Origin: Promethearchaeota archaeon
GTDB lineage: Archaea; Asgardarchaeota; Hermodarchaeia; Hermodarchaeales; Hermodarchaeaceae
Assembly: GCA_048938385.1 (NCBI GenBank)
Contig: JBHLMG010000021.1
Coordinates: forward strand, 1 to 44,275
DNA: 44,275 nt
Direction: 5' to 3'
Every line of letters starts with the position of its first letter. The stretch's first letter is position 1. Made by a program: the position numbers and the translations under genes. The notes under the pieces are model-generated. The model did not search any database. It saw nothing but the letters and a program-made list of their open reading frames with translations, and was not told the DNA's origin. Shown here piece by piece: positions 1 to 39,411 of the stretch.

Positions 1-510
1 AACTTTCCCTCACGGTACTAGTGCACTATCGGTCTTGGGACGTATTTAGGGTTGGGAATCGATGCTTCCCAGCTTCCCACGGGATTTCCGACCCATGGTA
101 CTCAGGGACTCCAGCCCAAGCCTGTTGTGTTACGCCTACGGGGCTATCACCCTCTATGGCGAAACTTCCCAGGATCCTTCGGCTTCGACAACGAGGCAGC
201 GGCCGGGCCCTGCAACACCACATCTCCGCGTGGTTTCTCACACGGATTCAGTTTGCCCTTTTCCCTTTTCGCTCGCCGTTACTCAGGGAATCTCATTTGA
301 TTTCTTTTCCAGCCCCTACTAAGATGTTTCAGTTCGGGGCGTTCCCACTCCTCGAAAGGAGCGGCGCACATTATTAGCGTACGCCAGGAAGTCCTATTCG
401 GCGATCTGCGGATAAGGCTACATGCACCACCCCGCAGCTTATCGCAGCTTGTCACGGCCTTCGTCGGCGCCCAAGCCTAGTCATCCACCAAGTGGCGTTG
501 TTGTGTTGGC
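1..510 (-). rRNA. rrl: 23S rRNA, 5' portion (runs off the window start)
   Basis: Reverse complement reads ...GCCACUUGGUGGAUGACUAGGCUUGGGCGCCGACGAAGGCCGUGACAAGCUGCGAUAAGC..., the archaeal 23S 5' end, and ends in GACCGAUAGUGCACUAGUACCGUGAGGGAAAGUU, conserved domain I. The 5' boundary is approximate. Confidence 0.97.
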
Positions 511-678
511 ACTACTTGGAACCCACACTGATTCTGACTGGCGTTATCCAGGGTATGCGACCTATGCATAGCCATCATCGTGAAGACCAAGGAGAGGACG
601 GGTCCTCCTAGGCTCGACACCCATATGCACGGCACATGGGCTGAAAGTGTTGGTAAAAAGGAGGGACGCACATTGAGC

Positions 679-5244: not shown

Positions 5245-5638
5245 TGTGGCCCAGAGATGAAGGACGGCTGCCGGTAGTTCCCTCGGGAACAGCTGAGGAA
5301 GCTCCAACCTCCCATTAGGCAGCGGTACGGCGCGAGTCGTAGAATGAGAATTCTGCTCTGGGAACAGCAACGACACGACCAATGTTGATATGACGATGAT
5401 GCAGTCGAGGGTTATCCTTAACCCGAGCAACATGTTGGTGACAATATGTTTGATAACCTGCTGAGGACAGCGTTGGAACCGATGAAACGGCCTATCACCG
5501 TGGGAGCAAGCCCAAATAGGTCGCTAATGAGGCGCCTTCTGAAGCGACGGGTAGGGTGCTTAGCTAGATGCCGTCAAGCCGCTCGAGGCAACTTGTGTGG
5601 CTGAACAAAAGATGGGCTACTCTTATCACTGGGCCACA
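5245..5638 (+). ncRNA. rnpB: RNase P RNA (archaeal, likely type A)
   Basis: P1 TGTGGCCCAG/CTGGGCCACA; CR-I GAGGAAGCTCC; CR-V AACAAAAGATGGGCTACT; P8-like TACGGC-GCGA-GTCGTA and P9-like GAAT-GAGA-ATTC hairpins; K-turn-like GATGA../CTGA pairs; followed by a T-tract. Confidence 0.93.
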
Positions 5639-8469: not shown

Positions 8470-8609
8470 GGGCTCGTAGCTTAGCTAGTCACACTCGGAC
8501 TTCCGTTGTGGGTAAGGTTAGAGCATCGGGCTTTTAAGGAGGCGTATGAGACGAAGTGCCCTCCAAAGAAACCCGAGGGTCGCGGGTTCAAGTCCCGCCG
8601 AGCCCGCCA
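8470..8609 (+). tRNA. tRNA-Lys(UUU) with two introns (D-loop ~8489-8516; canonical 37/38 at 8537-8570), CCA encoded
   Basis: Acceptor GGGCTCG/CGAGCCC, anticodon stem TCGGG/CCCGA with CT-TTT-AA, T arm GCGGG-TTCAAGT-CCCGC. The 37/38 BHB is perfect (CTTT/AAAG); the D-loop BHB is relaxed. Confidence 0.93.
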
Positions 8610-8653: not shown

Positions 8654-8786
8654 TGGTGCAGGGGACGGGATTTGAACCCGCGCAGGCCTACGCCACTGGG
8701 ACCTGAACCCAGCCCGTGTAGTCCCTGAAATGGTCCAAAATAAAAGGGAGCCCAGTTCAGGTTTGACCAAACTCCGGCACCCCTGC
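8654..8786 (-). tRNA. tRNA-Leu(CAG) with 45-nt intron at ~21/22 (8718-8762), CCA encoded
   Basis: GCAGGGG/CCCCTGC acceptor, CTGGG-TTCAGGT-CCCAG anticodon arm, long variable arm; BHB central helix GGTC/GACT and intron helix CCTGAA/TTCAGG. Confidence 0.93.
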
Positions 8787-37494: not shown

Positions 37495-38313
37495 ATGCAT
37501 TTGGAACTCATAAGAAACGAGCCTGCTGTTCTTCTTCGTGGTAGTCGGCGTAAGGTTCTCATTGTTGCTGATTTGCATATAGGATATGAGCGAACACTGG
37601 TTCAACAAGAAAATTATTCGAGCAAGATAACAGAACAGGTTCTCCAACACCTGGATGGCATTGTGGAGCGCGTAAAACCTACCGAAATCATCATATTAGG
37701 CGATTTGAAGCACACGATTCGTACCTTTTCGAAGCAAGAGTTCCGAAGTATAGCATTAGGCTTAGCTCGGCTTCAACAACGGGCAACTCTAACTGTAGTC
37801 CGTGGAAATCATGATGCCGATCTTGAGTTAGTTGTTCCGGATGGTGCAGCAATCATTCCATCATCAGGATTTAAACTGAGCTTTGGTAAGCATCGTATCT
37901 ACCTTTTACATGGTCATGCCCAACCCACTGAAGAAATTCTATCATGCCAGCATTTGCTCATGGCACATGTTCATCCAGTAATAACCACTACCACTCTAAA
38001 AGGGCGAAAATCTAAACACCGCGTCTGGGTAAAAACTGGATGGCAGCCAACCGTTATTGAAGCATTTACTCAGTGGTTTGGTAATCGAGTAGTGGAAAAA
38101 CACCCAGAAACCATCTCAAGTGTGCTTGATATGAAAATACTTGTAATCCCCGCATTTCTTGATTTATTACATGGACATGTTCTCAATAACTCAGCTTCGA
38201 AACGGTTTCAAGGAAACCCCATATACCGTCATTTAAATTTAAACCAAGCAGAGATCGTGATGCTCGATCACACCTACCTTGGTACAGTTCAGCAACTTCA
38301 TGAAACAGAATAA
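37495..38313 (+). CDS. Lhr-associated metallophosphoesterase (MPE/PdeM-like)
   Basis: ADLHIG, LGDLKH, RGNHD, HGH, HVHP, IPAF. Confidence 0.9.
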   Translation: MHLELIRNEPAVLLRGSRRKVLIVADLHIGYERTLVQQENYSSKITEQVLQHLDGIVERVKPTEIIILGDLKHTIRTFSKQEFRSIALGLARLQQRATLTVVRGNHDADLELVVPDGAAIIPSSGFKLSFGKHRIYLLHGHAQPTEEILSCQHLLMAHVHPVITTTTLKGRKSKHRVWVKTGWQPTVIEAFTQWFGNRVVEKHPETISSVLDMKILVIPAFLDLLHGHVLNNSASKRFQGNPIYRHLNLNQAEIVMLDHTYLGTVQQLHETE

Positions 38314-38360
38314 AGGCTAAGGAAAATATTTAACTCCAATTTACTTTATCCTGCATCGCT

Positions 38361-38530
38361 GGGCCGGTGGTCTAGCTTGGTATAGGCAAGAAGACTGCTT
38401 TCTTCAGACCGCTAACGATTCGCGGTTCGGGACCATGAAAGCTCAAATCTTCATGGCGAGATTCCGTGAGATCTGGGGTTCAAAGCCAGATGGGAACTTC
38501 CATCTGGAGAAACTCCCCATCGGCCCACCA
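38361..38530 (+). tRNA. tRNA-Pro(CGG) with three introns (22/23: 38384-38416; 37/38: 38432-38462; 59/60: 38485-38513), CCA encoded
   Basis: Removing the three BHB-flanked segments gives GGGCCGGTGGTCTAGCTTGGTATGATTCGCGGTTCGGGTCCGTGAGATCTGGGGTTCAAATCCCCATCGGCCCACCA, a complete cloverleaf; a T-tract follows. Confidence 0.92.
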
Positions 38531-38622
38531 TTTTCATTGTTTTTTGCTCGTAACCCAAGTTTTAATTTCGGCAATCCCCGTAATTTTGGTGAATTTGCGT
38601 AAAGCACTTAAAGAATAGTTGG

Positions 38623-39411
38623 ATGCGTGTAGCTATGCCTGTCTCAGCGCAGGTCAGACAGCGTCTTGCAAGACGAATCGCAGGGGAGATATCGCTATCG
38701 GATAACCCGGGGCGTGTTATGCGAAAATGGCGAGAAATGTTTCATATCCCTCAAATCCAATTAGCAGAGAATTTCGTACCAATTGACGAAAAAACCCCCA
38801 CCCCCGGCGTATCACCCTCAGTAATTAGTGACTATGAAAGTGGACGCCGTCAATCACCTGGAACAAAAACTATCAAACGCTTCGTTGAAACCATAATCGC
38901 TTTAGATGAACAAAATGGCGGACAGATCATTAATGCTTTCCAGCGACTGATGGGTGTAGAGATCCCTACTAACATCATTATTGATGTTAGCGAATTCGCT
39001 CAAGGAATAACAGCAAAAGAGTTTCTTGAAACACTTCGAGGGCAGGTGGTGGCCTGTGAAGAGCTACTCAATCGTGAAATTCTTGGCTATTTGGCTATTG
39101 ATACAGCAGAGGCACTTGATGGTCTTTCTAGTAATGGATTTCTGAAATTATTTGAGGCTTCCACGGATCGCGCTTTGGTTCTTATCAATGCATCAACCGG
39201 TCGATCCCCATTAGTCGCAGCAAAAGGTGATGTTAAACCAAGTCTTTTTGTACTACATGGAGTAGAACAAATCGACTATTTAGCAATCGAACTTGCAGAA
39301 CGCGAGCGTTTTCCGCTAGCAATCTCTCGACCAGAATCAGTGGAAAACATGTTAAGGCGATTACAAACCCTACGAAAACATACAGTGACAGAAACCCAAG
39401 GAAGAAAGTGA
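38623..39411 (+). CDS. Archaeal HTH (XRE-like) transcriptional regulator, COG1709-like
   Basis: RIAGEISLSDNPG..RKWREMF, GVSPSVISDYESGRR.SPG, STGRSPLVA. Confidence 0.88.
   Translation: MRVAMPVSAQVRQRLARRIAGEISLSDNPGRVMRKWREMFHIPQIQLAENFVPIDEKTPTPGVSPSVISDYESGRRQSPGTKTIKRFVETIIALDEQNGGQIINAFQRLMGVEIPTNIIIDVSEFAQGITAKEFLETLRGQVVACEELLNREILGYLAIDTAEALDGLSSNGFLKLFEASTDRALVLINASTGRSPLVAAKGDVKPSLFVLHGVEQIDYLAIELAERERFPLAISRPESVENMLRRLQTLRKHTVTETQGRK

What the first reader, a model, noticed from the sequence alone, without database searches (positions are those of the whole stretch)
38361..38530. tRNA-Pro(CGG) interrupted by three BHB introns (22/23, 37/38, 59/60)
Seen: 33-, 31- and 29-nt inserts, each with an intron hairpin and a 4-nt central helix (TGGT/GCTA, TTCG/CGAG, TTCA/AGAA with one A-A) flanked by 3-nt bulges. 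Splicing yields a clean cloverleaf. Established: triple-intron tRNAs are rare, best known from Thermoproteales, and need a relaxed-specificity splicing endonuclease. Standard tRNA scanners often miss or miscall them. Finding one in a probable Asgard genome bears on the evolution of eukaryotic TSEN.
Basis: partly seen in the sequence, partly recalled or inferred. Interest (0 to 1): 0.7.

Follow-up and report, generated by a model that had tools for sequence, protein, structure and literature searches.

The report
Three-intron proline tRNA gene, Hermodarchaeum
This is a real proline tRNA gene (anticodon CGG) cut into four pieces by three short protein-spliced introns in an Asgard archaeon of the genus Hermodarchaeum, a well-supported new example of a gene layout already described for other Asgard archaea.

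Summary
Removing 38384-38416 (33 nt), 38432-38462 (31 nt) and 38485-38513 (29 nt) from 38361-38530 leaves 77 nt. ARAGORN calls this tRNA-Pro(CGG), with its CCA encoded. All three junctions fall in exact bulge-helix-bulge (BHB) register. The 37/38 motif is canonical, the 59/60 motif has 3 bp plus an A-A, and the 22/23 motif is relaxed, with almost no exon-side helix.

All 14 other species genomes of the genus (Ca. Hermodarchaeum) carry the same three introns. Of 77 exon columns 68 are invariant, against 15 of 93 intron columns, and the intron helices covary. Sister-genus orthologues have no intron or one, and are colinear with the predicted spliced product. Contigs from two other studies differ from the window only inside the introns.

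The genome encodes an alpha/beta EndA pair (the alpha has the catalytic triad and the specificity-loop lysine) and RtcB. No second Pro(CGG) gene was found. No RNA data exist, so splicing is inferred.

It is not rare here: about two thirds of this genome's detected tRNA genes are interrupted. Heavily interrupted Asgard tRNA genes (up to five introns) and Asgard (alpha-beta)2 EndA are already published. Verdict: new member of a known kind.

The parts
38324..38334 (+). A/T-rich TATA-like box (AAATATTTAAC) about 27-37 nt upstream of the mature 5' end; presumed archaeal promoter
   Evidence: Read from the sequence. An equivalent A/T-rich box (ACATTTTAAG, AAATTTTAAT) sits at the same distance in all 14 congeneric loci. 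Promoter function is inferred.
38361..38383 (+). Exon 1: acceptor 5' strand, U8 G9, D-stem 5' strand, D-loop, position 22
   Evidence: The exon 1 columns that are invariant across the 15 species are listed. The encoded D-arm GTCT-AGCTTGGTA-TGAT parallels the intronless paralogue Pro(TGG), GTCT-AGTTCGGTA-TGAT.
38384..38416 (+). Intron 1 (33 nt) at 22/23, with a relaxed BHB: central helix 38378-81/38411-14, intron-side GG/CC, an inner 5-bp hairpin, exon-side helix only 1 bp
   Evidence: The central helix is paired in 15/15 species, and the GG/CC pairs show G-C to A-U double changes. A stronger-looking alternative BHB (38383-38409) is not conserved.
38417..38431 (+). Exon 2: D-stem 3' strand, position 26, anticodon stem 5' strand, loop positions 32-37 including anticodon CGG (38428-38430)
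   Evidence: Every column is invariant in the 15 species.
38432..38462 (+). Intron 2 (31 nt) at the canonical 37/38 position, with a full BHB: anticodon stem (5 bp), 3-nt bulge, 4-bp helix, 3-nt bulge, 7-bp intron helix
   Evidence: Four of the 7 intron-helix pairs carry compensatory changes. This intron is shared with sister-genus genomes G017 and G018.
38463..38484 (+). Exon 3: position 38, anticodon stem 3' strand, variable loop, T-stem 5' strand, T-loop positions 54-59
38485..38513 (+). Intron 3 (29 nt) at 59/60 in the T-loop, BHB: T-stem (5 bp), bulge, 3 bp plus A-A, bulge, 8-bp intron helix
   Evidence: Six of the 8 intron-helix pairs carry compensatory changes, and the fourth central pair is unpaired in 14/15 species. 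Ten tRNA genes of this genome carry an intron at this same position.
38514..38530 (+). Exon 4: position 60, T-stem 3' strand, acceptor 3' strand, A73, encoded CCA (38528-38530)
   Evidence: CCA is encoded in nearly all tRNA genes of this genome.
38531..38547 (+). T-rich tract (TTTT...TTTTTT) directly after CCA; presumed archaeal transcription stop
   Evidence: Read from the sequence. Function is inferred; the bacterial-type terminator scan found nothing.

Best explanation
This is the functional, and in this assembly the only, tRNA-Pro(CGG) gene of a Ca. Hermodarchaeum species (Asgard archaea). It is split into four exons by three protein-spliced (BHB) introns.

Likely mechanism:
- The gene is transcribed from an A/T-rich box about 30 nt upstream into a precursor of 170 nt or more. 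RNase P, whose RNA lies in the same window, trims the 5' leader.
- The heterotetrameric (alpha-beta)2 splicing endonuclease recognises three BHB motifs. It cuts after the second nucleotide of each 3-nt bulge, at 38383|38384 and 38416|38417, at 38431|38432 and 38462|38463, and at 38484|38485 and 38513|38514.
- RtcB joins the four exons into a 77-nt tRNA whose CCA is already encoded.

Shown: the gene anatomy, the BHB register, conservation and covariation across species, and the presence of the enzymes. Inferred: transcription, the cleavage sites in vivo, the order of intron removal, and cleavage of the relaxed D-arm motif.
For:
- That finder gave 40 loci on the real genome and 2 weak loci on a reversed null genome.
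- All 14 congeneric species genomes have the orthologue with the same three introns.
- Of 77 exon columns 68 are invariant, against 15 of 93 intron columns. Identity to the window is 92% in exons and 59% in introns.
- On the proposed structure 90.6% of cells are paired, against 43-51% when the 3' partners are slid by 1-3 columns. Fourteen pairs carry double changes, mostly in the helices of introns 2 and 3.
- Sister-genus orthologues are intronless (G016, Rfam tRNA 55.9 bits) or have one intron (G017 and G018 at 37/38, G015 in the D-loop). They are colinear with the predicted spliced product.
- Contigs from two other studies (X5, X7) differ from the window at 5 and 10 places within the gene, all inside introns.
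- EndA alpha is 186 aa, and its best PDB match is the A. pernix alpha subunit 3p1z_B at E = 6e-46. By my residue count on that ungapped alignment it has Y124, H132 and K163, and K41 aligns with the specificity-loop K44.
- A second EndA paralogue of 204 aa lacks the catalytic His. RtcB is present.
- No other Pro(CGG)-like gene is in the assembly.
Against: - There is no RNA evidence at all, because no RNA run holds this DNA. Splicing and the exact junctions are therefore inferred.
- The BHB of intron 1 is weak. Two of its four central pairs are G-U, the intron-side helix is 2 bp and the exon-side helix is 1 bp. No Asgard EndA has been tested on such a substrate.
- The assembly is 89.8% complete, so an intronless second copy cannot be excluded.
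- The mature tRNA would have a U13-U22 mismatch and U38. Both are also present in the orthologues; the intronless paralogue Pro(TGG) shares only the U13-U22 mismatch and has A at position 38.
Confidence: 0.9

Rival explanations
1. The gene is real, but intron 1 is cut at other positions. One option is a 34-nt intron (38383-38416), which gives a perfect 4-bp D-stem with an 8-nt D-loop that lacks A21. Another is the stronger-looking BHB at 38383-38409.
For: The 38383-38409 candidate scores better as a BHB (4 central, 3 intron-side and 4 exon-side pairs) than the chosen one (4, 2, 1). Dropping U22 would turn the U13-U22 mismatch into a U13-A22 pair, as read from the sequence.
Against: Removing 38383-38409 leaves a 15-nt D-loop and no acceptable cloverleaf (reasoned; it is not among the finder's solutions). 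Its pairs are not conserved: 73.9% are paired, no better than shuffles (315/500), with no covariation. The intronless and single-intron orthologues and the paralogue Pro(TGG) all have a 9-nt D-loop ending in GGTA followed by N22-GAT. This matches the 38383|38417 junction and a 77-nt product.
Confidence: 0.07
2. The locus is a decaying tRNA pseudogene whose insertions are never removed. Proline CCG codons would be read by tRNA-Pro(UGG) or by an unassembled intronless copy.
For: There is no RNA evidence. The assembly is 89.8% complete. An intronless Pro(UGG) gene exists at C23:185660-185736.
Against: The exons are almost invariant across 15 species while the introns diverge yet keep their helices through compensatory changes. 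Strain-level variants avoid the exons. An upstream A/T-rich box and the encoded CCA are conserved. No second copy is in the assembly. About two thirds of this genome's detected tRNA genes are interrupted in the same way, so interruption is the normal state here.
Confidence: 0.02
3. The interrupted structure is an assembly or binning artefact.
For: The source is a metagenome-assembled draft of 51 contigs.
Against: The same 170-nt architecture is present in 14 other species genomes. Run X1, which may be this DNA's own source, spans the stretch in one contig, and run X4 of the same study holds it in overlapping contigs. Contigs from two other studies (X5, X7) cover most of the stretch and the whole gene at roughly 93-96% identity.
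Confidence: 0.01

Closest known systems
[quoted passage not shown] 2024, PMC11291895; census preprint bioRxiv 10.64898/2026.10.13.758758)
   Same: It is from an Asgard lineage. It has several short introns per tRNA gene, at the canonical 37/38 site and in the D-arm and T-arm. Its D-arm intron has a weak motif and is missed by annotators. Two EndA paralogues are present, and introns come and go between close relatives.
   Different: The lineage is Hermodarchaeia, which the main text of neither paper treats ('Hermod' occurs 0 times in the preprint; no paper in the library links Hermodarchaeia with tRNA introns beyond a passing mention). My rough count for this genome is about 1.2 introns per detected tRNA gene. 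That is below the 2.2 of the preprint's focal families and above its 0.91 for other Asgard families.
Multi-intron tRNA genes of Thermoproteales (Sugahara et al. 2008 and Fujishima et al. 2010, as cited in the preprint and in PMC11291895)
   Same: Up to three BHB introns per gene occur at non-canonical positions (recalled from memory for the three-intron maximum and for T-loop sites). Processing depends on an (alpha-beta)2 EndA with a specificity loop.
   Different: It is a different phylum. I did not test whether intron sequences recur between genes, the transposition signature of Thermoproteales. The ten 59/60 introns listed share only the splice-site motif by eye.
Aeropyrum pernix (alpha-beta)2 splicing endonuclease (PDB 3P1Z, 3AJV), with the Crenarchaea-specific loop (L1) and its K44
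   Same: The alpha subunit here aligns end to end at E = 6e-46. The catalytic Tyr, His and Lys are conserved, and a Lys sits at the K44 position. A second, His-less paralogue is present. Kaneta et al. 2018 (PMC5829648) already report this architecture and the L1 loop for Asgard archaea.
   Different: The second paralogue matches the M. jannaschii homotetramer subunit (79.9 bits) better than the A. pernix beta subunit (28.5 bits). Neither heteromer formation nor substrate range has been tested.

Membership tests
Archaeal tRNA gene with EndA-spliced (BHB) introns | Removing the inserts restores a canonical cloverleaf with a defined anticodon | tested here: met
   The 77-nt product is called tRNA-Pro(CGG) by ARAGORN. 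It differs at 6 of 77 positions (my count from the two sequences) from the intronless G016 orthologue, which Rfam scores as tRNA at 55.9 bits.
Archaeal tRNA gene with EndA-spliced (BHB) introns | Each exon-intron boundary lies in a 3-nt bulge, with the two bulges separated by a 4-bp helix (hBHBh' or a relaxed form) | tested here: met
   All three junctions are in exact register. Intron 2 has the full motif, intron 3 has the full motif with one A-A in the central helix, and intron 1 has a relaxed form with a 1-bp exon-side helix. The central helices are paired in 100%, 95% and 77% of cells across the 15 species.
Archaeal tRNA gene with EndA-spliced (BHB) introns | Exons are under purifying selection while introns are free to vary but keep their helices | tested here: met
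   68 of 77 exon columns are invariant against 15 of 93 intron columns. Fourteen pairs carry double changes. Strain variants occur only in introns.
Archaeal tRNA gene with EndA-spliced (BHB) introns | The genome encodes a splicing endonuclease able to cut non-canonical sites, and an RNA ligase | tested here: met
   There are two PF01974/PF02778 genes. The alpha has the catalytic triad and the loop lysine, and the other paralogue lacks the His. RtcB scores 579 bits.
Archaeal tRNA gene with EndA-spliced (BHB) introns | Spliced mature tRNA, and excised introns, are detectable in RNA | not testable with these tools
   No RNA run holding this DNA was listed.
Split or permuted tRNA gene (Nanoarchaeum or Caldivirga type) | tRNA pieces are encoded at separate loci or in permuted order and joined in trans | tested here: not met
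   All four exons are colinear within 170 nt. In congeners where the 5' acceptor strand seemed missing, it lies 30 nt upstream, behind a fourth cis intron.
tRNA pseudogene | Relaxed constraint on the tRNA-coding parts | tested here: not met
   Exon identity to the window is 92% against 59% for introns across the 14 other species. No exon variant occurs in contigs from other studies.

The most novel reading that the evidence does not exclude
One orthologous tRNA gene carries 0, 1, 3 or 4 introns within a single family, Hermodarchaeaceae, with at least two separate gain-or-loss events for the D-loop intron inside the genus. All 15 species also keep a D-arm (22/23) intron whose BHB has essentially no exon-side helix. 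If those introns are really spliced, Hermodarchaeum would be a compact natural series for dating intron gain and precise loss. Its EndA would also have to accept a more relaxed substrate than those tested biochemically so far.
Probability: 0.35. Interest if true: 0.45.

Novelty: new member of a known kind. Interest (0 to 1): 0.3.

Why it matters
This is a clean, comparatively validated case of a multi-intron tRNA gene in an Asgard class for which no such description was found in the literature searched. It shows again that ARAGORN and the Rfam tRNA model leave such genes unannotated. As a result, tRNA complements of Asgard draft genomes look incomplete when they are not. The locus, with its relatives carrying 0 to 4 introns, offers ready substrates for a first biochemical test of an Asgard splicing endonuclease. 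It does not by itself change the picture of how the eukaryotic enzyme evolved, because the enzyme architecture and the intron richness of Asgard archaea are already published.

Tried and rejected
- **Standard scanners.** ARAGORN in default mode and in intron mode, and the Rfam tRNA model at gathering score and at E <= 1 on the locus, all miss the gene. tRNAscan-SE was not available.
- **RNA evidence.** No RNA holder was listed for 38200-38700, so expression and junctions could not be examined. Only DNA contigs could be laid on the stretch.
- **Alternative BHB at 38383-38409.** Rejected, because it gives a bad cloverleaf and has no comparative support.
- **Split tRNA in congeners.** I considered this when BLAST matches began at position 8-9. 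It was rejected once the 5' exon was found 30 nt upstream, behind a fourth intron.
- **Pro(CGG) in other Asgard families.** A 13-mer pattern search over 201 genomes was as noisy as its control. My finder found no CGG solution in the 12 loci returned from other families. This says nothing either way, because those lineages may not encode CCA, which my finder requires.
- **Second Pro(CGG) copy in this genome.** Near-matches to exon 2 lie in non-tRNA context, and no further Pro-type gene ends exist.
- **Limits of my finder.** It needs a perfect 7-bp acceptor stem, U8, an encoded CCA and at most 3-4 introns. Its census is therefore a lower bound, and some of its multi-intron solutions are wrong. 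Examples are C35:23852-23958, which by eye is Val(CAC) with one 37/38 intron, and C5:25180-25321.
- **Bacterial promoter and terminator scan.** It found nothing and does not apply to archaea.

Full report
**1. The observation.**
- Taking out 38384-38416 (33 nt), 38432-38462 (31 nt) and 38485-38513 (29 nt) leaves exons of 23, 15, 22 and 17 nt.
- Joined, they give a 77-nt sequence that ARAGORN calls tRNA-Pro(CGG). It has a 7-bp acceptor stem (one G-U), A73 and an encoded CCA.
- Plain ARAGORN finds no tRNA in the whole window, and its intron mode also misses this gene.
- The Rfam tRNA model misses it at gathering score and even at E <= 1 on the 3-kb locus.

**2. BHB register.** I defined the motif strictly. 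The cut falls after the second base of a 3-nt bulge, and a 4-bp central helix lies between the two bulges. An exon-side helix lies beyond one bulge and an intron-side helix beyond the other. All three junctions, which were chosen only to restore the cloverleaf, fall in this exact register.

| Intron | Position | Central helix | Intron-side helix | Exon-side helix |
|---|---|---|---|---|
| 2 | 37/38 | TTCG/CGAG, 4 bp | 7 bp | anticodon stem, 5 bp |
| 3 | 59/60 | TTCA/AGAA, 3 bp plus A-A | 8 bp | T-stem, 5 bp |
| 1 | 22/23 | TGGT/GCTA, 4 bp (two G-U) | GG/CC, 2 bp, then an inner 5-bp hairpin | 1 bp |

Intron 2 is the textbook motif. Intron 3 is the same geometry moved to the T-arm. Intron 1 is a relaxed motif.

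**3. More than chance.** I wrote a finder that needs a perfect acceptor stem, U8 and CCA. It then enumerates relaxed BHB candidates and accepts only spliced products with D, anticodon and T arms.
- Over the whole 2.48-Mb assembly it gave 40 loci, 37 of which ARAGORN confirms after splicing, with distinct anticodons.
- On the reversed, non-complemented genome it gave 2 loci of the lowest grade out of 6,295 anchored windows.
- The precursor folds at -71.9 kcal/mol, z = -4.4.

**4. Whose genome.**
- The window is contig C18 of a 51-contig assembly that is 89.8% complete.
- The neighbouring phosphoesterase gene recovers named records. By 100% DNA identity, these are the same loci as several same-genus genomes returned by the relatives search.
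- One of them is Ca. Hermodarchaeum yapensis Yap4.bin9.105.
- NCBI places that genus in Hermodarchaeia, kingdom Promethearchaeati.

**5. Comparative evidence.**
- All 14 other species genomes of the genus have a full-length orthologue at 73-80% identity.
- In the 15-sequence alignment the exons are nearly frozen and the introns are not. Of 77 exon columns 68 are invariant, against 15 of 93 intron columns. Identity to the window is 92% in exons and 59% in introns.
- On the proposed structure 90.6% of cells pair, against 43-51% when the 3' partners are slid by 1-3 columns. Fourteen pairs show changes on both sides, and no shuffle of 500 reaches the observed values.
- The double changes sit in the intron-2 helix (4 of 7 pairs), the intron-3 helix (6 of 8) and the GG/CC helix of intron 1 (2 of 2).
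- The central helix of intron 1 pairs in 15/15 species and is a perfect TGGT/ACCA in seven of them.
- The A-A in the central helix of intron 3 is conserved as a non-pair in 14/15.
- The stronger-looking alternative BHB at 38383-38409 has no comparative support.

**6. Natural controls for the junctions.** The sister genus of the same family holds the orthologue in several states:
- G016 has no intron, and Rfam scores it as tRNA at 55.9 bits.
- G017 and G018 have only the 37/38 intron (42.3 bits for G017).
- G015 has only a D-loop intron.

Their sequences are colinear with the predicted spliced product of the window. This includes U38, the UUCAAAU T-loop and the 9-nt D-loop followed by N22-GAU. 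The intronless paralogue Pro(UGG) of this genome has the same D-arm layout. This fixes the intron 1 junction at 38383|38417 rather than one base upstream.

**7. Population evidence.**
- One contig of run X1, which may be this DNA's own source, spans the stretch whole, and run X4 of the same study holds it in overlapping contigs.
- Contigs from two other studies, a mangrove and a sediment metagenome (X5 and X7), carry the gene. They differ from the window at 5 and 10 places within 38361-38530.
- Every one of those differences lies in an intron, mostly in hairpin loops, and none lies in an exon. This also excludes an assembly artefact.
- No RNA run was listed, so splicing itself remains inferred.

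**8. The machinery.** The genome has two genes with both endonuclease domains.
- The 186-aa protein aligns end to end with the catalytic alpha subunit of the A. pernix (alpha-beta)2 enzyme (3p1z_B, E = 6e-46).
- By my residue count on that ungapped alignment, it keeps Tyr124, His132 and Lys163. It also has the inserted loop with Lys41 at the place of A. pernix Lys44.
- Kaneta et al. 2018 (PMC5829648) describe that lysine as responsible for broad substrate specificity.
- The 204-aa protein has Thr where the M. jannaschii enzyme has the catalytic His, as expected of a structural beta subunit.
- RtcB is present at 579 bits, and the RNase P RNA lies in the same window at 5252-5631.
- No second Pro(CGG) gene is in the assembly.

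**9. Mechanism.** The most likely course has four steps:
- transcription from the conserved A/T-rich box about 30 nt upstream;
- 5' trimming by RNase P;
- six cuts by the (alpha-beta)2 endonuclease, one in each bulge;
- three ligations by RtcB.

The anatomy, the conservation and the enzyme genes are shown. Transcription, the in vivo cut sites, the order of removal and the cleavage of the relaxed D-arm motif are inferred.

**10. What is known already.**
- Valentin-Alvarado et al. 2024 (PMC11291895) reported that 92-95% of tRNA genes in three complete Asgard genomes have introns. Over half have several, often at non-canonical sites.
- A 2026 preprint (10.64898/2026.10.13.758758) counts up to five per gene. 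It finds that D-arm insertions are the ones annotators miss, and reports two EndA paralogues in 44 of 60 Asgard genomes.
- Kaneta et al. 2018 (PMC5829648) reported (alpha-beta)2 EndA with the L1 loop in Asgard archaea.
- Hermodarchaeia are not discussed in either tRNA study's main text.
- Within this genome the gene is not exceptional. About 27 of 37 confirmed tRNA genes are interrupted and about 14 have two or more introns.
- His(GUG) also has three introns, and ten genes have a 59/60 intron.

The finding is therefore a sound new member of a known kind.

**11. The most interesting side result.**
- Twelve of the 14 congeners carry a fourth intron of about 28-30 nt in the D-loop. It has its own covarying 8-bp helix.
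- This intron is absent in the window's genome and in G008 and G001.
- On a single-gene tree G008 and G001 nest inside an intron-bearing clade, apart from the window's genome.
- The absences therefore probably reflect more than one gain or loss event. This needs a proper species tree.

Noticed in passing
L004-L007, L009, L011-L017 (for example L005:1501-1699:-): In 12 of 14 congeneric species the orthologous tRNA-Pro(CGG) gene has a fourth intron of about 28-30 nt in the D-loop (around 17/18). Its central helix is built on the palindrome TCTAGA and its 8-bp helix covaries (5 pairs with double changes). The exact junction is ambiguous, giving a 9-nt or an 11-nt D-loop. It is absent in the window's genome, G008 and G001.
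   Followed up: partly
L023 (G016), L018 and L019 (G017, G018), L021 (G015): Sister-genus orthologues carry no intron, only the 37/38 intron, or only a D-loop intron. One tRNA gene therefore ranges from 0 to 4 introns within a family. A single-gene tree suggests more than one gain or loss event for the D-loop intron within the genus.
   Followed up: partly
window 8470-8609 (+) and 8654-8786 (-): There are two more interrupted tRNA genes in the window. One is tRNA-Lys(UUU) with a 28-nt D-loop intron and a 34-nt 37/38 intron. The other is tRNA-Leu(CAG) with about 47 nt of D-arm insertion whose junctions my finder did not resolve. Both are missed by default ARAGORN and by Rfam at gathering score, and ARAGORN in intron mode miscalls the first as Leu(GAG).
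   Followed up: partly
window 1-512 (-) and 5252-5631 (+): The 5' end of the archaeal 23S rRNA runs off the window start (421 bits). A complete archaeal RNase P RNA (164 bits) lies nearby.
   Followed up: no
G000 contigs C5, C7, C18, C22, C23 (listed): Ten tRNA genes of this genome have an intron at exactly 59/60 (after GGTTCRAA). Each is 25-33 nt, and by eye most end in a purine-rich motif (GAAA-, GAGA- or GGAA-like) that can pair with T54-C56. tRNA-His(GUG) at C23:261807-261962 (-) also has three predicted introns. Roughly 1.2 introns per detected tRNA gene overall.
   Followed up: partly
G000 C23:189153-191854 (L002): The His-less EndA paralogue (C23:190407-190667 region) sits inside a cluster of tRNA genes: Met, Thr(GGU), Arg(CCU), Tyr and Asp. 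Four of these five are themselves interrupted.
   Followed up: no
G002:C16:5649-5664: One congener has a second exact match to exon 2 on another contig. It may be a second Pro(CGG) copy or a duplicate contig.
   Followed up: no
L033 (JBHLQC010000001.1) and L035 (JBHLSA010000004.1): Two records labelled 'Candidatus Odinarchaeota archaeon' and 'Candidatus Thorarchaeota archaeon' are 100% identical, over the 2.9 kb compared, to the loci of two genomes (G002, G009) that the relatives search places in the same genus as Ca. Hermodarchaeum yapensis. Their public labels look wrong.
   Followed up: no
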